Below, in pieces: positions 36,576-62,996 of a DNA stretch of 64,000 nt. Position 1 is the stretch's first letter. Each line of letters opens with the position of its first letter. The position numbers and the translations under genes were made by a program. The stretch is taken from assembly GCA_045563025.1 (NCBI GenBank), contig JBJKUS010000005.1, positions 101,988 to 165,987 of the forward strand, given 5' to 3'. The notes beneath the pieces are model-generated. The model was not told the DNA's origin and did no database searches. It worked only from the letters and a program-made list of their open reading frames with translations. The stretch is from Alphaproteobacteria bacterium. GTDB taxonomy: Bacteria; Pseudomonadota; Alphaproteobacteria; Methylaequorales; Methylaequoraceae.

Positions 36576-37535
36576 ATGAAATTGCTAATCTCTCTTTTAT
36601 TTAGTTTTTTATTTTTTGTAGGTGTAAATGCTCAGACTATAAAAATAGGATCACTTCAATATGGAAGTGTAAATTGGGAATTAAAATTAATTAAGGAATT
36701 AGAGTTAGACAAAAAAAATGGCATTGACCTTGAAATAGTAGAGTTAGCCAGTAAGAATGCTGCCGCTGTTGCTTTGCAGGGTGGAGCTGTCGATCTTATT
36801 GTAACTGATTGGTTTTGGGTTTCAAGACAAAGAAATGAAGGCAGGCTTTTCAGCTTCGTTCCTCATTCTATGGCCGCCGGGGGTCTAATTGCTTCAACAA
36901 ATTCAAAAATCTCTCAAGATATTGATCTAAAGAATAAAAAGATAGGAATAGCAGGTGGACAAGTTGATAAAGGTTGGTTGATATTTAGAGCTTTCTATAA
37001 AAAAAAATATGGTGAAGATCTTATAAAACTTAGTAAACCAATATTTGGCGCTCCTCCACTTCTAAATAAAAAATTAAAACAAAATAGTTTTGATGCAATA
37101 CTTACTTATTGGCCTTACCAGGCAAAACTATTGACAGATGATAATTTTAAAAAAGTAATCGATATTAGAGATATTTTAAGTGAGTTAGGAATACCTAGAG
37201 GAATGCCAGTAATTGGGTGGGTTTTTAAAGAAAAGTGGGTAGGTGAATCAGAAGAAGTTTTTAAAAATTTCTTAAAAGCTTCAGACGAGGCAAAAAGGCT
37301 TATGCTCGAATCTGATGATATTTGGGAGAAAGTGCGTCCTTACATGAATGCATCAGATGATAAATTATTTAAAAATCTCAGAGATATTTATAGAGAAGGT
37401 ATCCCTACAGGTAAATTCACAGATAACCAACTAGAGGGTTCAAAAAAACTTTACTCAATTCTTTCAAAAATTGGTGGAAAAGAGTTAGTTGGTAAAGCAA
37501 CCGAGTTATCTCCAGGAACTTTCTGGAGAAACTAA
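36576..37535 (+). CDS. ABC transporter substrate-binding protein (NitT/TauT, NMT1/THI5-like fold)
   Basis: Signal peptide, periplasmic SBP fold, first gene of an SBP-permease-ATPase operon. Confidence 0.7.
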   Translation: MKLLISLLFSFLFFVGVNAQTIKIGSLQYGSVNWELKLIKELELDKKNGIDLEIVELASKNAAAVALQGGAVDLIVTDWFWVSRQRNEGRLFSFVPHSMAAGGLIASTNSKISQDIDLKNKKIGIAGGQVDKGWLIFRAFYKKKYGEDLIKLSKPIFGAPPLLNKKLKQNSFDAILTYWPYQAKLLTDDNFKKVIDIRDILSELGIPRGMPVIGWVFKEKWVGESEEVFKNFLKASDEAKRLMLESDDIWEKVRPYMNASDDKLFKNLRDIYREGIPTGKFTDNQLEGSKKLYSILSKIGGKELVGKATELSPGTFWRN

Positions 37536-37537
37536 AA

Positions 37538-38287
37538 ATGAATGCCTTCAGCTCTAATGCAGTTTTGAGGATTGCATCGATTCTCTCGTTTTTTCTAATT
37601 TGGCATCTAGCCAGTATTTTCGTTGATGTTGAGCTTCTTCCAGGTCCAGATGAAGTTTCAAAAAAGATTATTGAGGAGGCAAAAAGTTCCGAACTTTTTT
37701 TTCATACCCTCATAACTCTTAAAAGGGTCTCCATTTCATTTATTATAGCAATGCTAATAGGAACTTTTTTTGGTTTATATATGGGTAGAAATGAAAGAGC
37801 TAATACCATCCTTGATGATTGGCTTGTTTTAGGGCTTAACGTTCCTGCATTAGTAATTATTATTTTATGTTATGTATGGTTTGGTTTAAATGAAATGGCA
37901 GCAATCCTTGCAGTTTCACTTAACAAAATCCCAATGGTAGCAGTTATTATGAGAGAGGGCTCAAGAGCTATAGAAAAAGATTATTTGGATGTTGGAAAGT
38001 TCTACAAAATTGGGAAAAATAAGCTTTTTTTAAAGGTAATTTTGCCACAATTGTATCCTTACCTTTTATCCTCAGCAAGATCTGGTTTGTCGTTAATATG
38101 GAAAATTGTTTTAGTTGTAGAGTTATTAGGTAGAAGTAATGGAGTTGGTTTCAAGTTATATGGTTTTTTTCAATTCTTTGACATTTCAGGAATTCTCGCG
38201 TATACACTTGCTTTTGTAATTTTAATAATATTTGTCGAATTCTTACTAATTAGACCCTTTGAAAGAAAAATGTCGGTGTGGAAGTAA
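37538..38287 (+). CDS. ABC transporter permease (NitT/TauT family)
   Basis: 249 aa, 6 TM, EAA-like loop region. Confidence 0.8.
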   Translation: MNAFSSNAVLRIASILSFFLIWHLASIFVDVELLPGPDEVSKKIIEEAKSSELFFHTLITLKRVSISFIIAMLIGTFFGLYMGRNERANTILDDWLVLGLNVPALVIIILCYVWFGLNEMAAILAVSLNKIPMVAVIMREGSRAIEKDYLDVGKFYKIGKNKLFLKVILPQLYPYLLSSARSGLSLIWKIVLVVELLGRSNGVGFKLYGFFQFFDISGILAYTLAFVILIIFVEFLLIRPFERKMSVWK

Positions 38288-38288
38288 A

Positions 38289-39041
38289 ATGAGTTTTACC
38301 ATAAAAATTAAAGAAAAAACATTTCACAACAAACACAATGATTCTAAAATATTAGTTCTCAAAGACATTGACATCAGAATTAAAACAAACGAATTTTTGT
38401 GTATAGTTGGTCCATCAGGGTGTGGAAAAACCACTCTAATGAATATGATAGGAGGCTTAGTTAAAAGTGATGGTCAAATGCTTAAATTTAATAATAATCC
38501 AAACAATGAAGATGAAAATTTTGGTTATGTCTTTCAAACCTCAAGATTACTTCCCTGGTTAACTGTAAAAGAAAATGTTGCCTTAGTATGTAACAAAAAA
38601 GAAATAGATGAATACCAAATTGAAGACATTTTAGAGAGCTTTGGTTTGAAAGATTTTATAAACTATTATCCAAAATCAATTTCTGGAGGAATGAGACGAA
38701 GGGTTTCGTTGGCGAGAGCATTTATTAATAACCCAAAAGTTTTATTAATGGATGAGCCGTTTGTATCGCTAGATCAACCAACGGCTGAGAATTTATATGA
38801 AGTTTTAATAAATTATTGGAAAAAAACAAAAACTACAATTATTTTAATCACTCACGTACTCAAGGAAGCAATTCTCCTAGGTGATAGAATACTATTCTTT
38901 TCTAAAAACCCTGGCACCGTTGTATTTGATTACCAAGTAAAATCAAACAGAAATAACCTTAGTGTTGAAAGTAAATTGGTAAACAAAGAATACTTAGAGT
39001 TAACAAAAAAATACCCAAACCTGTTGAATGGTTTGTTGTGA
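38289..39041 (+). CDS. ABC transporter ATP-binding protein
   Basis: GPSGCGKTT Walker A, LSGGMRRRVSLARA signature, LLMDEPF Walker B. The start is set to the second Met of the track ORF. Confidence 0.85.
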   Translation: MSFTIKIKEKTFHNKHNDSKILVLKDIDIRIKTNEFLCIVGPSGCGKTTLMNMIGGLVKSDGQMLKFNNNPNNEDENFGYVFQTSRLLPWLTVKENVALVCNKKEIDEYQIEDILESFGLKDFINYYPKSISGGMRRRVSLARAFINNPKVLLMDEPFVSLDQPTAENLYEVLINYWKKTKTTIILITHVLKEAILLGDRILFFSKNPGTVVFDYQVKSNRNNLSVESKLVNKEYLELTKKYPNLLNGLL

Positions 39042-39658
39042 ATGTTATAGATACATAAAAAAAATGGGTGAATTTCAAAACTATATTGATAAGGGTGGTG
39101 TGATCTTTACCATTCTGCTGGTTATGTCAGCCATTGGAACGACTATAATTTTATACAAATTTATAGAATTATACTTATTTGATAACGATAAATTTCTTAA
39201 TTGTGATGAACTACTTGATCAGTCTAAAAACATTTCTGATTTTAAAGAACATTTAACAGGTTTAGAAAAAAGTAATTTTCTAAGTAAGGTTTTAACAGTA
39301 TTAGATAGGAAAACCCCAGCTGACAATGATGAAATCTTTAGTTTAATCGAGAAAGGAAATCGAAAAGTCGCAAAAACTCATGCCCACCTTGGAAATAATT
39401 GCTCAGGTCAGCCCTCTAATCGGTTTATTGGGAACAGTGATTGGAATGATTGACTCATTCAACGAGTTAGAATTAGGAGGTAGTCTGGTGGATCCATCCA
39501 TTTTAGCAGGAGGTATTTGGACAGCTTTATTAACAACAGCAATGGGTCTAATAGTGGCAATTCCTGCTTTGATTAGTCATTACTTTTTTGACAGGAAAAT
39601 TATGCAAAAATACAAGCGAACAGAAACAATAATTTTCAGAATTAAAAGTATAGCTTAG
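39028..39658 (+). pseudogene. exbB: ExbB/TolQ (MotA family) proton-channel gene interrupted by a frameshift near 39385
   Basis: The N-terminal part lies in the ORF 39028..39453. The conserved LEIIAQVSPLIGLLGTVIGM...GIWTALLTTAMGLIVAIPAL continues in ORF 39380..39658, a different frame. Confidence 0.6.
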
Positions 39659-39670
39659 TTTTCATTTACA

Positions 39671-39964
39671 GTGCAAAACCAAAATAAAAAATTAAAAATT
39701 AATATTATACCCTTGATAGATATTATTTTCTTAATGCTCGTTTTTTTTATGTTAGCAACAAATTTCAATGAGAAAAGAGAGTTGGATTTTTCAATAGAAA
39801 AAAAAATAGGAGAAAGTTCCGAACTTGAGAAAACGATAATTATCAACATTAAGAATAATGAATTTCTCTATAATAACAAGATTTTAGGAAAAAGAGAATT
39901 TAGAGCAAGATTTATTAAAGATTTGGAAGAGTTCAAATTCCAAGAATTTTGTAATCCTAAATGA
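39671..39964 (+). CDS. exbD: ExbD/TolR biopolymer transport protein
   Basis: 97 aa, INIIPLIDIIFLMLVFFM TM motif. Confidence 0.8.
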   Translation: MQNQNKKLKINIIPLIDIIFLMLVFFMLATNFNEKRELDFSIEKKIGESSELEKTIIINIKNNEFLYNNKILGKREFRARFIKDLEEFKFQEFCNPK

Positions 39965-40044
39965 CAAATCTTCTGAAATAGAAAATTTGATTAAAATCTT
40001 AGATATTTTGAAAGTCAACAAAATAAAAAATGTAACATTTTCTG

Positions 40045-40446
40045 ATGATCCGAAAAAAGAGAAATAGTAAAAAAATAAACTTTGGTGATTCTGTTAATTT
40101 AATCCCAATGATAAATATTATCTTTTTATTATTAATTTTTTTTTTATTGACAGGAGTTATTCAGAAAAAAAATGAATCAAACATTTCTTTGCCTGAATCC
40201 TTTTTTGGAAAAAAGAAAGTTAATGAAAAAAAAGAACTAACTATAAGTTCAGACGGGAAAATTTTATTTAAAAATTCTCCTTCTAACTTAGATTCCATAA
40301 AGTCAATGAAAATTATTTCTGATGAAATATTAGTTATAAATATTGATGAAAAAGCAAAAATTAGAAGATTTAATGAAATAGTTAATATCTTTAAATCTAA
40401 GGGACTAAAAAAAATATACATAAATGTGAAGCACAAAAATGATTAG
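40045..40446 (+). CDS. exbD: ExbD/TolR biopolymer transport protein (second copy)
   Basis: 133 aa, NLIPMINIIFLLLIFFLLTG TM motif plus periplasmic domain. Confidence 0.8.
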   Translation: MIRKKRNSKKINFGDSVNLIPMINIIFLLLIFFLLTGVIQKKNESNISLPESFFGKKKVNEKKELTISSDGKILFKNSPSNLDSIKSMKIISDEILVINIDEKAKIRRFNEIVNIFKSKGLKKIYINVKHKND

Positions 40447-41170
40447 ACTAAATCAACTCTTTATTGCCTCTGGCCTTTCATTAATGATTCACGGCTTTTT
40501 TATATATCAATTTGAGGAATCAAAAAAAGTTGAAGAAATTTATGTTGTTGACCTCAGTTCACATAAAGAATTCAAACCAAAAGAGATTCCGAAGAAAAAA
40601 ACAAAAAAAGTTAATAATCAACTCAACAAAAAAACCTTAAAGAAAGAGGAAATAAAAAAAGAAAAAGATGTTATTCCAATAAAAAAGAAAGAAATAAAAA
40701 AAGAAATAAAAGAAATTGAAACCAAAAACCAAATCAACCCTGAGAAACCAAAGATAATTGAAAAAAAAAAAGTAAAAAAAATAGAAAAAGTTGAAAGCAA
40801 TGAAAGAAATAAATTTAGTTTAGGTCAAAAAAAATCTACTGCTAACAACAACGCAAAAAAACTTTTAATTGATCAAAAAATCAAATCGTTTCTAATTCAA
40901 ATTTCTGAAGAAATTAATAAGATTGCTATGAGGTCATACCCCATACAATCTATTAAAAGAAGAGAACAAGGAACCATCATCGCTGTGATTGTTTTAAATG
41001 CTAATGGAAATCTATTAGACATTAGTTTTGAAAACAGAAGACCTAGGCGATTACACGAGAAAACAAAGGAAATAATTAAAAATTATAAATTTCCTAAACC
41101 ACCGTCCTTAATTTTCGAGACCAAAGAAACTCTGAAGATAAAAATTCCCGTTAATTTTATCTTGAGATAA
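40439..41170 (+). CDS. tonB: TonB-like energy transducer with Lys/Glu-rich (not Pro-rich) linker
   Basis: N-terminal TM (LFIASGLSLMIHGFFIY), low-complexity KKEEIKKEK... spacer, C-terminal TonB_C-like domain (YPIQSIKRREQGTIIAVIVLNANGNLLDISF). Confidence 0.65.
   Translation: MIRLNQLFIASGLSLMIHGFFIYQFEESKKVEEIYVVDLSSHKEFKPKEIPKKKTKKVNNQLNKKTLKKEEIKKEKDVIPIKKKEIKKEIKEIETKNQINPEKPKIIEKKKVKKIEKVESNERNKFSLGQKKSTANNNAKKLLIDQKIKSFLIQISEEINKIAMRSYPIQSIKRREQGTIIAVIVLNANGNLLDISFENRRPRRLHEKTKEIIKNYKFPKPPSLIFETKETLKIKIPVNFILR
40590..40800 (+). repeat. Low-complexity Lys/Glu/Ile-rich coding repeat inside tonB-like gene
   Basis: Reiterated KKEIKKE / KKKVKKIEK units in translation; A-rich purine tract in DNA. 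Confidence 0.6.
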
Positions 41171-41176
41171 TGAGGC

Positions 41177-41196
41177 CTGTTGTAAATATACAACAG
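41177..41196 (+). terminator. Hairpin downstream of tonB-like gene (putative terminator)
   Basis: CTGTTGTA-aata-TACAACAG perfect 8-bp stem followed by an AT/T-rich tail. Confidence 0.45.
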
Positions 41197-41304
41197 ATAT
41201 ATGCTTTTAATATGTGATATGCCATTTATTTCTTCAATAATCGATATTTTCTAATATGATGAGATGGATATTATTTAAATACTAACTATAAGGAAGGAAA
41301 TAAT

Positions 41305-42780
41305 ATGAATATTAAAAAGAAAATTGCTTTAGCTGCTATACCTGCTGTTATGGCTCTTTCCGCAACTGATGTAAGCTCAAAAGTCTTACTTATGAGTGAC
41401 AGCGGCTGGGAAGTGTCTTTCGACGGTGCTGCTAACGCATTTCATACAACCATACCTCAACAGGAACTATGGAAACGCTAGGCTGACTACAACGAGTATA
41501 CAACTGGTGGTGAAACTGACGGCCTCAGGTATTATCCAAGGTGGTGGTGAATCTGGTAACGTTGTAAACCGTGGTGGCATGTCCAAAACTTGGACAGGGT
41601 GCAGGTGGATCTGATATTTCAGGTCAATCTCTGTCGGTCTATTACCAAACGTATGGGGTTTCACTGTAAAAGCTCCAACTAAAAGTGGTTTAGACGTTTC
41701 AGGTCGTTTGGGTCTTATACACACACATGAACGGCGACTGGTGCTTCAGCATGAAGCTAACAGTAGTAAACATTCGTGAAACTTCACTTAACTGTTGCAG
41801 GGTCTTTCGGTTCTGTTCTAATGGGAAGAAGTTTAGGCATTCACCAGTCAAACGCCATCTCTAAACGATATGACGCTATTTGGTGTCGGTGCCGCTGCAG
41901 GTAACATCGTCACTGGTACTACATCTAGGTAGAATTGGTGTAGGATACGTCTACGCTGACTGGTATCCACAAATCACTTGGACGACTCCAGGTCTTAGGA
42001 CCAATTGGAGCTAAAATTGGTATTTTACAAGCGACTCCGCTTCAGTCTAGTACTGGTGCCGACGCAACAAATACAAAATACCCAAGAGTCGAAGCTCAGT
42101 TAGACTATACGGTTGAAGTAGGCGGTCTTAGGCGGTTACGTTTGGGTTGATGGTCAATACCAGAACGTCGATGCGAGATACATTGGGCTGAGAGTCTAAG
42201 CTTTACCGAAGCAAGAAACACTGGTAGTTCGTAACCTTAAGTGGTGTAGCTAGCACGTTGCAGTCGGCGACGAATCAGTCTGAAGGCATTGAAGTGGGTG
42301 GAGTATGGTTTCGGTACGAGATTAACATTCCAAGGCTTCAAACTAGTTGCTTCTGGTTTCTATAACCAAGGATATAGGCTCATGCAGTTGCAAGGTAACA
42401 CAAATGGCGGCGCTTATTCCGGATCTCTTGATGAGAGAGGTAAAGCCTAGACACTTCTATGGTGGGTACATCCAAGGTACATATGACTTCGGTCAAGGTA
42501 CAAACGTAGGTTATTCTTACGGTTCCAACCACTCAAGTTCAAACCGGACAGGATGCAGGTGAACTCAACCAACGTTACACACTTGGTGGCGGTGGCACTG
42601 CAGTTAGAACAGATGCTCTATCCAAAACTATGTTGAGTCACACATGGGTATGATCTGGCACAATGTCACTGATGACTTCAGAGTAATCGCCGAAGGTGTA
42701 TTCTTCAGAGAGCGCACTGGCATGGTGCTGGTTCACAAGAAAGCACACAGGTATCTGTTGGTGCATTCTTTTTCTGGTAG
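41305..42780 (+). pseudogene. Porin-like Gly-rich outer-membrane beta-barrel gene, disrupted by about 10 frameshifts/stops
   Basis: Strong RBS AGGAAGGA 7 nt upstream of ATG. Signal peptide MNIKKKIALAAIPAVMALSA. Gly-rich segments appear in all three + frames (TASGIIQGGGESGNVVNRGG; LGQGAGGSDISGQSLSVYYQTYG; FGVGAAAGNIVTGTT; GGYVWVDGQYQNVDARYIGL; FYGGYIQGTYDFGQGTNVGYSYGS; LGGGGTAVRTDALS). The sequence ends ...VSVGAFFFW-stop, the aromatic C-terminal signature of beta-barrel proteins. GC is elevated. No ORF over 72 aa exists in the track. Confidence 0.6.
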
Positions 42781-42810
42781 AATTTTTACCTGAGAATAAA
42801 CTATACACTT

Positions 42811-42842
42811 AGGGGAAGGTTTTATTAGCCTTCCCTTTTTGT
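42811..42842 (+). terminator. Rho-independent terminator of the porin-like gene
   Basis: GGGGAAGG-ttttattag-CCTTCCC followed by TTTTT. Confidence 0.75.
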
Positions 42843-43989
42843 TATGAGACGCAAATTAATAGATACTAATTTCCGCTTTCTTTTTAACTGAGTTGTTCAA
42901 CTTCGTAACCGATTCACTTGATTCATTTACCGGTTCTTTTACAAATATACGACAAAGTGACGAAATATTATTTCTCAGTGCATACGAGAACGTAAAAGTC
43001 GTTGAACAAGACTCACAACTTAACTGGGAAGAACATTCTCACCCAGTTAATATCTCTGAAGAGAGAGTAGAGGGGGCATCTAAAATTACTCTTGTTCAGG
43101 GTGGGTAGCAAAACTAAGTCCTCTGTTCCCAGGAGAAAAAATTAGAATCCATATCAGACAGTATCTCCGAAGGGTCTATGCAAAAGCGAATAGAAGTGAA
43201 GATGTCGTTTTTACTAGCGGAAGAGTTGGTATTCAGAGACTCTGCCGGGCACAAGAGTTAAAAGACAACAGAGTAGTCTCAGGAAGGGTGTTTTACAACA
43301 AAGATGGGCTTAAATGTCATTTTTGGCTCAGTTTTGACGAAAAGGGTTCTCAAAGCACAACAGATCCAATGCTAGAAAGTCGAAACCCAGACCTAAAAAC
43401 TAAACCCATACGTATGCCGGGATCAAGATTAGTATCCGTCAAAAACCCTTTTACGCTATGGCAGTACCACCCAACTCAGGAATCCAAGAGACCACGAGTA
43501 GCCAAGAGGAAGGGTGGATTGGATAATACTCACACGTAAGTCACTCATGGTGGCAAGAACCAATCTCTCTGAAAGTGAAAGAAAACTCCGCAAGGTCATC
43601 TAACATATTGAAGTCCAGGGGCTAAAAAGCGAAGTTCAGAGCAGCTAAGACAAGAGCTTCACGAGTCATTAAAGGGAGGTCCAAGCCAACAGATATCAGA
43701 TATCCGTGCGCAAGGCCATGTGTATCATCGTCACCCAAATGTTCAACCTTCTGGTTATCAATATCCAAGACCGCTATCCCGCTACCGACACCCATACCCA
43801 TACCAACATACCGTCAAGCCATACCCAAACCCCAATCAACAGGCTTATCCAAATCAACGAATTATCAGGACAATCCCAATCAAGGGCCGACTAATCAAGC
43901 GAGTTAAGTTTAAAATCACTTGAAAGTATGAGATCGAGAGGTTTAATCAGCGAGGAGTCTTATCTAAGAAAGCTAAAAGAGCTGGGTTA

Positions 43990-44716
43990 TTAATTAAATT
44001 CAACCTCGAAGTTCCATATTATGGTGTGGTTGGCAGATGCATCAGTCAGTCCGTGCAAATAACCAACTGCCCACTCATAATCCATGTCACCGTACAGTTT
44101 AAACCCAGACTCTAACTGAAAACCATACTGATGCTCCTGTTCTCCAAAGACTCTAAATTTTGAAATCTCTCCAAAGTCACTAAACCCAATCAACCCAAAA
44201 TCAATGAGTTCGAAAAAATACCTCTTTGATGTAAAAGTAATTACTTAAATCGAAGGTTGTTGACCCCCCGGCTCTACTTCCAACTTGTTTTTCAAATATA
44301 AAATTAGTAATTAAACCTAATTCATCATTATACAGTTCATTTAAGTATTTGTATTCTATTTCGTCACCTTCAGAGTTTTCTGTTACAAAGTTATACGAAA
44401 AATAAAGTGCGGCAGCAAAATTTTCAAAATCAAAAATTTGCACTTGATTCTGAAATTCAGTTTTTTCCCAATCCAGCGGAGTATCTTCCTTGTCAGAAAT
44501 ATGAAATTCCAATTCACTTTGCCAGAAACTTGTCCAAGAATATTCAGTCTCAAGAACGTGATGATGATTTTTATTTTCTTCGTTCCTATCATCGACATCA
44601 AAATGACCTCTCCATTCAAAAGATTGTCTTCCCTCTTCAACTTTTGGACTGTATATTTTATGGTGAGCTTGTAAATAAGAAAATTTAAAGAATAAAATTA
44701 AAAAAACAAGTTTCAT
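43990..44716 (-). pseudogene. Outer-membrane beta-barrel protein (His-rich N-terminal region; MipA/CopB-like?) interrupted by a frameshift at a C6/G6 homopolymer (about 44194-44200)
   Basis: ORF 44201..44716 has a signal peptide MKLVFLILFFKFSYLQA and alternating beta-strand pattern. It continues in a shifted frame as ORF 43990..44193, ending ...WNFEVEFN. The junction falls at the run gaCCCCCCgg. Confidence 0.5.
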
Positions 44717-45630: not shown

Positions 45631-46341
45631 ATGGATTATCAGCTTAAAGCGGATGATTTCGTGGGTGTAACTTTTTGGATAATTTCTGTATCAATGGTTG
45701 CATCAACAGCATTCTTCTTTTTTGAATCTAACAGTGTTGCTAGACACTGGCAAACATCTGTGAGAGTGGCTGGACTAGTTACACTTATCGCAGCTGTTCA
45801 CTACTACTATATGAGAGATGTTTGGGTTGCCACTGGTGAATCTCCAACTGTTTACCGATACATCGATTGGCTCCTAACCGTTCCACTTCAGATGATAGAA
45901 TTCTATCTAATTCTTGCAGCAGTTGGCGCAGCAACCGCTGGAATTTTCTGGAGACTTCTAATTGGTACACTTATAATGCTTATTGGTGGCTTTATGGGTG
46001 AAGCTGGTTACATAAATGCAACTGTTGGCTTCATAATCGGCATGGCAGGATGGATTTATATTTTGTACGAAGTCTTTGCCGGTGAAGCTGCACAAGCTAG
46101 TGCATCAAGTAACTCGGAAGGAATGAAATCAGCATTCAATGCATTAAAATGGATTGTATCAATCGGTTGGTCAATTTACCCAATCGGTTATTTCCTAGGT
46201 TATCTTTCAGGTGCGGGTGCAGATGCATCTACACTTAACTGGGTATATAACTTAGCTGATTACATTAATAAAATTGCATTTGGTGTAATTATATGGGCTG
46301 CTGCTAAAGCTGACATCAGCCAAAGCTTAAATTTTATGTAA
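45631..46341 (+). CDS. Proteorhodopsin, blue-tuned (Gln at position 105 equivalent)
   Basis: 7-TM protein. RYIDWLLTVPLQMIEFY contains the proton acceptor D97, donor E108 and Q at the L/Q105 tuning site. Schiff-base Lys is in YNLADYINKIAFGVIIW. Confidence 0.95.
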   Translation: MDYQLKADDFVGVTFWIISVSMVASTAFFFFESNSVARHWQTSVRVAGLVTLIAAVHYYYMRDVWVATGESPTVYRYIDWLLTVPLQMIEFYLILAAVGAATAGIFWRLLIGTLIMLIGGFMGEAGYINATVGFIIGMAGWIYILYEVFAGEAAQASASSNSEGMKSAFNALKWIVSIGWSIYPIGYFLGYLSGAGADASTLNWVYNLADYINKIAFGVIIWAAAKADISQSLNFM

Positions 46342-46351
46342 ATCTTAAGGT

Positions 46352-46388
46352 AAGGGAAACATCCTAAAATATGTTTCCCTTATTTTTT
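46352..46388 (+). terminator. Rho-independent terminator after the proteorhodopsin gene
   Basis: Perfect 11-bp inverted repeat AAGGGAAACAT-cctaaaat-ATGTTTCCCTT followed by ATTTTTT. Confidence 0.8.

Positions 46389-61226: not shown

Positions 61227-62996
<1,770 letters not shown>

What the first reader, a model, noticed from the sequence alone, without database searches (positions are those of the whole stretch)
39028..41170. exbB-exbD-exbD-tonB cluster with frameshifted exbB and K/E-rich TonB linker, adjacent to degenerate OMP genes
A complete Ton-type energy-transduction module is present: a MotA-family channel, two ExbD/TolR paralogs, and a TonB-like protein with a TonB_C domain. Two things are odd. 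ExbB is split by a frameshift around 39385, where the conserved LIGLLGTV motif resumes in another frame. The TonB spacer is Lys/Glu-rich rather than the usual Pro-rich. No TonB-dependent receptor (plug plus 22-strand barrel) is visible downstream. Instead, only the porin-like and small-barrel genes follow, both disrupted. Together with the next three findings, this suggests the whole 39-44.7 kb envelope locus is either decaying or was poorly sequenced.
Basis: partly seen in the sequence, partly recalled or inferred. Interest (0 to 1): 0.55.

Follow-up and report, generated by a model that had tools for sequence, protein, structure and literature searches.

The report
Intact Ton motor, broken by sequencing errors
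A conserved ExbB-ExbD-ExbD-TonB energy module of a streamlined marine alphaproteobacterium is really there. Its 'frameshifts', and the shattered outer-membrane genes next to it, are insertion-only errors in this assembly, not gene decay.

Summary
The cluster is real. ExbB (39064-39658), ExbD1 (39671-40067), ExbD2 (40045-40446) and a TonB_C protein (40439-41170) all pass Pfam thresholds.

exbB is split by one extra G at 39351.

These two lesions belong to a stretch (39057-44219) with about 60 insertions and essentially no deletions relative to natural contigs 98-99% identical through the Ton genes. Those contigs, and 25 of 26 related species-level genomes, carry every gene intact in the same order.

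Three features point to a technical cause:
- The inserted bases have uniform composition (50% GC).
- They are not homopolymer extensions.
- Deleting them restores full ORFs whose substitutions are third-codon-position biased.

The source is a public MAG contig of 354 kb. I read this as an assembly or consensus artefact, not decay.

The Lys/Glu-rich, Pro-poor TonB linker is real. No TonB-dependent receptor lies in the window, and the downstream 470-aa gene models as a 16-strand porin.

Two leads are worth noting. The module sits 22 nt behind an ABC importer whose binding protein is 35% identical to the PQQ-binding protein PqqT. ExbD2 always has Asn where ExbD1 keeps the proton-carrying Asp.

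Ordinary overall; low interest.

The parts
36576..37535 (+). Periplasmic substrate-binding protein of an ABC importer, PqqT-like (319 aa, intact)
   Evidence: phmmer against PDB: 9B1U/9B1V, E 7.3e-56, residues 20-315. 34.8% identity over 296 aa, with PqqT K142 conserved as K132. 9B1U is the PQQ-binding protein PqqT (PMC11331073). Weak Pfam NMT1 and NCBIfam SsuA_fam hits.
37538..38287 (+). ABC permease (249 aa, intact)
   Evidence: The orthologue in L001 carries PF00528. Collinear in 26 species loci.
38289..39041 (+). ABC ATPase (250 aa from the ATG at 38289; the listed ORF starts at TTG 38259)
   Evidence: The L001 orthologue is 250 aa with PF00005. ORF list.
39064..39658 (+). exbB (MotA/ExbB/TolQ family), split in this record by one inserted G at 39351. 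Frame 1 runs to about 39350, frame 2 from 39347.
   Evidence: PF01618, 95 bits when repaired. Intact 197-205 aa homologues at up to 97% identity. L002 is 98.7% identical in nucleotides and lacks the G. The only JGI contig matching the site has the intact allele.
39671..40067 (+). exbD1 (GTG start; transmembrane motif PLIDIIF with the conserved Asp), split in this record by one inserted G at 39887
   Evidence: PF02472, 65.8 bits when repaired. Ten independent short-read contigs (L030-L039) lack the G. Asp is present in all 21 species loci where the motif could be read.
40045..40446 (+). exbD2 (133 aa, intact; transmembrane motif PMINIIF with Asn in place of Asp)
   Evidence: PF02472, 62.6 bits. 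Asn in 25 of 25 species loci. 2 mismatches in 402 nt against L031.
40439..41170 (+). TonB-family protein (243 aa, intact): N-terminal transmembrane helix with SxxxH (SLMIH), Lys/Glu-rich linker, TonB_C domain at residues 166-242
   Evidence: PF03544, 35.1 bits against a cut-off of 24.6. TIGR01352, 24.9 bits against a cut-off of 27.1. Composition. 1 mismatch in 732 nt against L031.
41305..42790 (+). Porin gene (about 470 aa in relatives), shattered here by about 29 insertions
   Evidence: 29 insertion events and 0 deletions against L030. The repaired ORF has no stops, and substitutions by codon position are 24/28/69. AF2 model of a homologue has pLDDT 66.8. Best Foldseek PDB hits are DcaP (E 7.5e-16), PorB, Omp32 and OmpF. 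Weak PF13609.
42811..42837 (+). Terminator-like hairpin after the porin gene
   Evidence: 11-pair stem followed by a T run.
42844..43993 (+). Lipoprotein gene (359 aa in L001: lipobox, coiled coil, Tyr/Pro-rich stretch, SHOCT-like C-terminus), shattered here by about 28 insertions
43990..44716 (-). Small outer-membrane-type gene (240 aa in relatives; ends ...NFEVEFN), split here by a 1-nt insertion at 44219
   Evidence: No Pfam or NCBIfam hit.
39057..44219 (.). Stretch of insertion-only sequence errors. A further small cluster lies at 46315-46363 and alters the rhodopsin C-terminus.

Best explanation
The locus encodes a normal, conserved and presumably functional Ton-type motor. ExbB forms the proton channel, an ExbD1/ExbD2 pair sits in its pore, and a TonB-family protein spans the periplasm through a Lys/Glu-rich linker.

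The motor lies directly behind, and is probably co-transcribed with, a PqqT-like ABC importer. A 16-strand porin, a lipoprotein and a small outer-membrane protein follow.

The exbB frameshift, a second frameshift in exbD1, and the fragmentation of the three downstream genes are not biological. They are single- and few-base insertions introduced when this MAG contig was assembled or its consensus was called.

- Shown: family membership, conserved synteny, the insertion-only pattern, and intact near-identical natural copies.
- Inferred: co-transcription, motor stoichiometry, and what the motor energises. That is most likely a TonB-dependent receptor encoded elsewhere in the genome.
For: 1. **Family membership.** PF01618, PF02472 (twice) and PF03544 are all above gathering scores.
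2. **Source.** The window's exact proteins, including the 92-aa and 97-aa fragments, are NCBI MAG proteins MFL2676051-64 on a 354,554-bp contig.
3. **Collinear relative.** L001 is 89.7% identical over 17 kb and has every gene intact. In the 17-kb alignment, nearly all of the 86 indels fall between 39057 and 44219, and all but three of those are insertions in the window.
4. **Near-identical natural contigs.** Short-read contigs from different runs carry intact ExbB (L002, 98.7% nt), and intact ExbD1, TonB and porin (L030-L039, up to 99.2% nt). The window differs by 33 insertions and 0 deletions against L030. Binomial p = 2e-10; for 62 versus 1, p = 1e-17.
5. **Nature of the inserted bases.** A36 C28 G38 T30, so 50% GC in a 29-44% GC setting. 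Only 9 of 26 single-base insertions repeat a neighbouring base.
6. **Repair test.** Removing the insertions restores full-length ORFs. Substitutions are third-position biased: porin 24/28/69, p240 7/5/50.
7. **Synteny.** 26 species-level genomes keep SBP-permease-ATPase-ExbB-ExbD1-ExbD2-TonB-porin-lipoprotein-p240. All are intact except one nanopore-plus-Pilon MAG.
8. **Population check.** A metagenome scan that allowed either allele at the exbB site returned only the intact allele.
Against: - I had no read-level data, so the technical cause is not identified. Candidates are an unpolished long-read stretch, a single-read bridge, or a consensus over mixed strains.
- The repaired porin is only 85-91% identical to any known allele, so no truly identical natural copy of that gene was found.
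- Other assemblies of related strains show exbB lesions: an in-frame TAA in L042 and a replaced 5' half in L041. Occasional real loss in the lineage therefore cannot be excluded.
- Whether a TonB-dependent receptor exists elsewhere in this genome is untested.
Confidence: 0.88

Rival explanations
1. Genuine, recent pseudogenisation. This strain is losing its Ton module and the adjacent outer-membrane genes through accumulated frameshift mutations.
For: - The lesions are in the public record and split five neighbouring genes.
- Related assemblies show other exbB lesions (L042 in-frame TAA, L041 truncation).
- The rest of the 64-kb window is cleanly coding, so the damage is local.
Against: - About 62 insertions against 1 in-frame deletion, whereas bacterial decay is deletion-biased (established knowledge).
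- The inserted bases are compositionally uniform.
- No nonsense mutations remain after repair in four of the five genes. p359 keeps two stops beside its uncertain start.
- Substitutions remain third-position biased.
- tonB and exbD2 inside the same stretch are 99.5-99.9% identical to intact natural contigs.
- The locus is conserved and intact in 25 of 26 species.
Confidence: 0.05
2. Programmed +1 ribosomal frameshifting or transcriptional slippage produces full-length ExbB, and ExbD1, from the split genes.
For: Both lesions need the same +1 correction, and each sits next to an A-run (GAGAAAGG; TTTTAGGAAAAAG).
Against: - Every relative, including contigs 98-99% identical, encodes the proteins in a single frame without the extra G.
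- There is no conserved slippery site or stimulatory structure.
- The same kind of insertion occurs about 55 more times in the next 3 kb.
Confidence: 0.01
3. The module is real, but it is the lineage's Tol-type envelope system (TolQ-TolR-TolA) and not a Ton uptake system. The K/E-rich linker would then be a TolA-like domain II.
For: - The best NCBIfam hits for ExbB and ExbD1 are tolQ and tolR, both far below cut-off.
- TolA also has the SxxxH motif and a Lys/Glu/Ala-rich helical linker (established knowledge).
- The neighbours are outer-membrane proteins and a lipoprotein.
Against: - The C-terminal domain passes Pfam TonB_C.
- Two ExbD paralogues are typical of Ton clusters. Myxococcus TonB1-ExbB1-ExbD1-ExbD2 is one example (PMC11658791).
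- No TolB (beta-propeller) or Pal (OmpA-like) signature occurs in the three downstream genes.
- The module is fused to an ABC importer operon.
Confidence: 0.06

Closest known systems
TonB-ExbB-ExbD energy-transduction system (E. coli type)
   Same: - MotA/ExbB-family channel, ExbD with a transmembrane Asp (ExbD1), and a TonB with an N-terminal SxxxH helix and a TonB_C domain.
- Gene order exbB-exbD-tonB next to an ABC importer.
   Different: - ExbB is short (197 aa).
- There are two ExbD paralogues.
- The linker has 4% Pro, against about 25% for E. coli TonB (that sequence recalled from memory).
- No plug-and-barrel receptor lies in the neighbourhood.
- NCBIfam equivalog cut-offs are not reached.
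Two-ExbD Ton clusters (e.g. Xanthomonas TonB-ExbB-ExbD1-ExbD2; Myxococcus xanthus TonB1-ExbB1-ExbD1-ExbD2, PMC11658791)
   Same: One ExbB, two tandem ExbD genes and one TonB in a single cluster.
   Different: - Here ExbD2 has Asn at the proton-carrying Asp position in all 25 species examined. I did not establish whether that also holds in the named systems.
- Those systems have known receptor partners.
PqqT / PqqU PQQ-scavenging route (M. extorquens PqqT; E. coli TonB-dependent PqqU)
   Same: - The binding protein is 34.8% identical to PqqT over its full length, with the PQQ-contacting Lys conserved.
- PQQ import in E. coli is TonB-dependent (PMC12124388).
   Different: - No PqqU-like receptor lies nearby, and PqqU is reported as nearly absent from Alphaproteobacteria.
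- Two other PqqT ligand residues differ (N143 to G, E111 to A).
- Substrate is untested.
Tol-Pal (TolQ-TolR-TolA)
   Same: Same motor superfamily, and a charged helical linker in the TolA/TonB-like subunit.
   Different: No TolB or Pal next to it, and the C-terminal domain scores as TonB_C.
16-strand general porins (DcaP, PorB, Omp32, OmpF)
   Same: The model of the downstream 470-aa protein matches these folds (TM up to 0.76 on the target). It has a C-terminal aromatic signature ...FFFW.
   Different: - About 130 residues longer, through loops.
- Only a sub-threshold Pfam Porin_4 match.
- The mature N-terminal segment is nearly invariant and its role is unknown.

Membership tests
MotA/ExbB/TolQ proton-channel family (PF01618) | Profile match above the gathering score across the transmembrane 2-3 core | tested here: met
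   C-terminal ORF scores 88 bits. Repaired ExbB scores 95.2 bits over profile positions 8-125, against a cut-off of 22.9.
ExbD/TolR family (PF02472) | Profile match above the gathering score | tested here: met
   Repaired ExbD1 65.8 bits and ExbD2 62.6 bits, against a cut-off of 25.4.
ExbD/TolR family | Conserved protonatable Asp in the single transmembrane helix (E. coli ExbD D25, established knowledge) | tested here: inconclusive
   ExbD1 has PLIDIIF (Asp), in 21 of 21 readable loci. ExbD2 has PMINxIF (Asn), in 25 of 25 loci. One paralogue therefore meets the feature and one does not.
TonB family | C-terminal TonB_C domain (PF03544) | tested here: met
   35.1 bits against a cut-off of 24.6, residues 166-242. 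The NCBIfam tonB_Cterm hit is just below cut-off, 24.9 against 27.1.
TonB family | N-terminal membrane anchor with the SxxxH motif | tested here: met
   Read directly from the sequence: GLSLMIHGFF at residues 12-21. TolA shares this motif, so it does not separate the two.
TonB family | Pro-rich rigid spacer (Glu-Pro / Lys-Pro repeats in E. coli) | tested here: not met
   Linker residues 27-150 are P 4.0%, K 31.5%, E 13.7%.
Ton uptake system (functional unit) | A TonB-dependent receptor (Plug PF07715 plus a 22-strand barrel PF00593) as partner | tested here: not met
   None found among the eight window ORFs of 459-781 aa that I scanned, which include all those of 559 aa or more, or in the three downstream genes. 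The rest of the genome could not be searched with these tools.
NCBIfam equivalogs exbB / tolQ / exbD / tolR | Score above the equivalog cut-off | tested here: not met
   Best hits are tolQ at 77 against 221, exbB at 59 against 206, tolR at 48.5 against 127, and ExbD_2 at 41 against 123.
Tol-Pal system | tolB and pal adjacent to tolQRA | tested here: not met
   The downstream 470-, 359- and 240-aa proteins have no TolB, PD40 or OmpA-like hits.
Pseudogene (real gene decay) | Lesions present in natural populations, mixed indel types, and relaxed selection | tested here: not met
   Insertions only. The lesions are absent from 11 near-identical natural contigs and from the JGI scan. Third-position bias is retained.
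PqqT-type PQQ-binding protein | Full-length homology and conservation of PQQ-contacting residues | tested here: inconclusive
   E 7.3e-56 and 34.8% identity. K142 and D141 are conserved; N143 and E111 are not. Binding is not testable here.

The most novel reading that the evidence does not exclude
In this streamlined marine alphaproteobacterial lineage, a PqqT-like ABC importer is fused in one operon to an ExbB-ExbD1(Asp)-ExbD2(Asn)-TonB motor. The operon is invariably followed by a 16-strand porin with an invariant, unstructured N-terminal segment.

The motor might energise uptake of PQQ or a similar scarce cofactor without a canonical 22-strand plug-and-barrel receptor. It could do so by gating the neighbouring porin or the lipoprotein.

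The evidence does not exclude this, but nothing here tests it. A conventional receptor elsewhere in the genome is the simpler reading.
Probability: 0.07. Interest if true: 0.7.

Novelty: new member of a known kind. Interest (0 to 1): 0.2.

Why it matters
**Quality control.** A 5-kb stretch of a deposited MAG carries about 60 spurious insertions. They turn five conserved envelope genes into apparent pseudogenes and also alter the rhodopsin C-terminus. Anyone inferring 'loss of Ton or porin genes' in this lineage from such records would be misled.

**Biology.** The corrected locus shows that an abundant, genome-streamlined marine lineage keeps a complete Ton-type motor welded to a PqqT-like ABC importer. 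That is a concrete lead on how such cells might scavenge a scarce cofactor. The lead is untested.

Tried and rejected
- **RNA genes.** Rfam (gathering thresholds) and tRNA scans of the whole window found nothing. The GC-rich 41.3-44 kb block is therefore not an RNA gene.
- **Promoters.** The sigma-70 scan gave no excess over shuffles (40 sites against 37.7 expected). It says nothing about operon structure, and only the terminator after the porin stands out.
- **Source genome.** The genome-contig scan did not retrieve the window's own genome or a close relative (best 65% ExbB identity). The source was instead identified through an exact-protein look-up.
- **Recurrent 92-aa ExbB product.** I considered that this product in 23 contigs meant a shared natural frameshift. 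I rejected that. All those contigs start exactly at 39380, one base after a common C/T SNP at 39379, so the product is a contig-edge effect.
- **Other 92-aa calls.** They trace to a Pilon-polished long-read contig (L040), a scaffold with an in-frame TAA (L042) and a scaffold with a replaced 5' half (L041). None shares the window's insertion.
- **Literature.** Searches for Ton genes or receptors in SAR11, HIMB59 or AEGEAN-169 gave only the known absence of receptors in Pelagibacter ubique (PMC3400609) and nothing on this lineage. I could not fix the lineage beyond 'SAR11-like or AEGEAN-169-like alphaproteobacterium'.
- **Link to LRMED.** A link to the LRMED long-read MAG project (PMC12379486) is only a guess from accession style.
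- **Error type.** Homopolymer-type error was rejected, because 9 of 26 matches to a neighbouring base is about chance. A mixed-strain consensus could not be tested without reads.
Full report
**What is in the window.** The window is about 29% GC and densely coding. A proteorhodopsin and carotenoid genes lie just downstream of the locus.

On the + strand, 36576-39041 encodes an ABC importer: binding protein, permease and ATPase. The ATG of exbB follows 22 nt later.
- ExbB is read in frame 1 from 39064 to about 39350, then in frame 2 from 39347 to 39658.
- ExbD1 starts at GTG 39671 in frame 2 and continues in frame 3 to 40067.
- ExbD2 (40045-40446) and a TonB-family protein (40439-41170) are uninterrupted.

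Pfam confirms the families:
- PF01618: 88 bits for the C-terminal ExbB ORF, 95 bits for the repaired protein.
- PF02472: 65.8 bits for repaired ExbD1, 62.6 bits for ExbD2.
- PF03544: 35.1 bits for the TonB C-terminal domain.

The exbB lesion is at 39351, not 39385. The first ExbD is also frameshifted.

**The frameshifts are part of a larger, one-sided pattern.** The repaired ExbB has thousands of intact relatives, typically 197 aa, at up to 97% identity.

A single-cell genome contig (L001) is collinear with the window over 17 kb at 89.7% identity. It carries ExbB (205 aa), ExbD (131), ExbD (133), TonB_C (241), a 470-aa protein, a 359-aa protein and a 240-aa protein, all intact.

In the pairwise alignment, nearly all of the 86 indels lie between 39057 and 44219. 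All but three of those are insertions in the window. The flanking 6 kb upstream has one indel, which is intergenic.

Closer natural contigs give the same picture.
- L002 is 98.7% identical and lacks only the G at 39351 and one A in the poly-A before the start codon.
- Ten short-read contigs from different runs (L030-L039, up to 99.2% identical) all lack the G at 39887.
- Against L030 the window shows 33 insertions and no deletion.

Gene by gene, the counts are as follows:

| Gene | Insertions | Deletions |
|---|---|---|
| exbB | 2, one of them in the 5' leader | 0 |
| exbD1 | 1 | 0 |
| porin | 29 | 0 |
| lipoprotein gene (p359) | 28 | 1, of 3 nt |
| 240-aa gene (p240) | 2 | 0 |

A 62:1 split has binomial p of about 1e-17.

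**Why this is a technical artefact and not decay.**
- The 132 inserted bases in the porin and lipoprotein genes are A36 C28 G38 T30. That is 50% GC in a gene block that is 38-42% GC in relatives, within a 29% GC genome.
- Only 9 of 26 single-base insertions repeat a neighbouring base, which is about chance. They are not homopolymer slips.
- Deleting the insertions restores full-length reading frames without internal stops in exbB, exbD1, the porin and p240. The p359 repair still shows two stops beside its uncertain start.
- The remaining substitutions are concentrated at third codon positions (porin 24/28/69; p240 7/5/50). This is the same shape as between two natural strains (59/43/143 for L001 against L030).
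- tonB and exbD2, inside the same stretch, differ from natural contigs by 1 and 2 bases.
- A scan of JGI metagenome contigs with a pattern accepting either allele at the exbB site returned one contig, with the intact allele.
- The window's exact proteins, including the 92-aa and 97-aa fragments, are NCBI MAG proteins on a 354,554-bp contig. The lesions are therefore in the deposited assembly.

Real decay would be expected to include deletions and nonsense mutations and to show relaxed codon-position bias. None of that is seen.

I could not identify the technical cause without reads. Possibilities are an unpolished long-read stretch, a single-read bridge, or a consensus over co-assembled strains in a hypervariable surface-protein region. 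Two other long-read, Pilon-polished assemblies of relatives (L019, L040) also carry frameshifts, scattered through this locus.

A small second cluster of three single-base insertions at 46315-46363 changes the rhodopsin C-terminus from ...ADSAKA to ...ADISQSLNFM. The resulting 236-aa rhodopsin is known only from this contig.

**A false lead.** The exact 92-aa ExbB fragment is 'encoded' on 23 other contigs. All of them begin exactly at 39380, one base after a common C/T polymorphism at 39379. That is what de Bruijn-graph contigs do at a variant, so these are contig-edge products and not shared frameshifts.

**What the corrected locus is.** Across 26 species-level genomes, with ExbB identity of 47-65%, the gene order is fixed. 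It runs binding protein, permease, ATPase, ExbB, ExbD1, ExbD2, TonB, porin, lipoprotein, 240-aa protein (opposite strand), DUF3126, DUF3429, rhodopsin. This is a core, conserved locus.

*TonB.* The protein has an N-terminal anchor with the SxxxH motif (SLMIH) and a linker of 31.5% Lys, 13.7% Glu and 4% Pro. Other proteins in the window average 11% Lys and 3% Pro. The Pro-poor, Lys-rich linker is real, and it fits the AT-rich coding bias.

*ExbD pair.* ExbD1 keeps the transmembrane Asp (PLIDIIF) in every species where the motif could be read. ExbD2 has Asn (PMINxIF) in all 25. By analogy with the ExbB5-ExbD2 structures reviewed in PMC11658791, this suggests a heterodimeric ExbD1/ExbD2 plug with a single protonatable site. 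That is inference, and I did not check whether other two-ExbD systems share it.

*Downstream genes.* An AlphaFold model of a homologue of the 470-aa protein (44-sequence alignment, pLDDT 66.8, pTM 0.69) is a beta-barrel. Its best PDB matches are 16-strand porins: DcaP (E 7.5e-16), PorB, Omp32 and OmpF. It has no plug, so it is not a TonB-dependent receptor. The other two downstream proteins have no TolB, Pal, Plug or receptor signatures. None of the eight window ORFs of 459-781 aa that I scanned, which include all those of 559 aa or more, is a receptor.

**Functional context.** The binding protein matches PDB 9B1U over its whole length (E 7.3e-56, 34.8% identity). 9B1U is PqqT, the periplasmic PQQ-binding protein of Methylorubrum extorquens. 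The PQQ-contacting Lys142 is conserved, while Asn143 and Glu111 are not.

PQQ import in E. coli needs the TonB-dependent receptor PqqU, which is reported as almost absent from Alphaproteobacteria (PMC12124388). A Ton motor placed 22 nt behind a PqqT-like importer, with no terminator between them, suggests one uptake route for PQQ or a related scarce compound.

The outer-membrane partner is unknown. The simplest assumption is a receptor elsewhere in the genome, which I could not search.

**Verdict.** The Ton module itself is an ordinary, conserved member of a known kind. The PqqT link, the Asp/Asn ExbD pair and the missing receptor are leads, not findings.

Noticed in passing
window 36576-39041: The ABC importer directly upstream of exbB has a binding protein 34.8% identical over its full length to PqqT, the PQQ-binding protein (PDB 9B1U). 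The key Lys is conserved. This linkage to the Ton genes is kept in 26 species.
   Followed up: partly
window 40045-40446 (ExbD2) against 39671-40067 (ExbD1); loci L003-L028: ExbD1 always has the transmembrane Asp (PLIDIIF). ExbD2 always has Asn at that position (PMINxIF), in 25 of 25 species. This implies a heteromeric ExbD pair with one protonatable site.
   Followed up: partly
window 46315-46363: Three more single-base insertions sit at the 3' end of the proteorhodopsin gene. The first changes the C-terminus from ...ADSAKA* to ...ADISQSLNFM*. The resulting 236-aa protein is known only from this contig, whereas the 232-aa form is on hundreds of contigs.
   Followed up: yes
window 41305-41440; alignment A2: The mature N-terminus of the porin (SKVLLMSDSGWEVSFDGAANAF) is nearly invariant across 44 homologues that are otherwise 52-86% identical. 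It is modelled with low confidence ahead of the barrel. Its role is unknown.
   Followed up: no
L042 2236-2560; L041 3100-3180: Two short-read metagenome scaffolds of a related strain carry other exbB lesions. One has an in-frame TAA about 50 codons in. In the other, the 5' half of the gene is replaced by unrelated sequence. These could be real variants or assembly chimeras.
   Followed up: partly
window 39379-39380; L030-L039: Twenty-three independent contigs start exactly at 39380. This is best explained by a common C/T SNP at 39379 breaking de Bruijn-graph contigs, and it creates a spurious recurrent '92-aa ExbB' in protein databases.
   Followed up: yes
window 61230-62996: A full-length ThiC (HMP-P synthase) gene is present. 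I recall from memory that SAR11 subclade Ia lacks thiC, which hints that the organism is not that subclade. Relatives' complete contigs of 1.49-1.65 Mb also point to a somewhat larger genome.
   Followed up: no
window 42844-43993; L001 10036-11115: The 359-aa downstream protein is a predicted lipoprotein (lipobox LNSC). It has a coiled-coil stretch, a Tyr/Pro-rich repeat region (YPYPYPYP) and a SHOCT-like C-terminus. It matches no known family.
   Followed up: no
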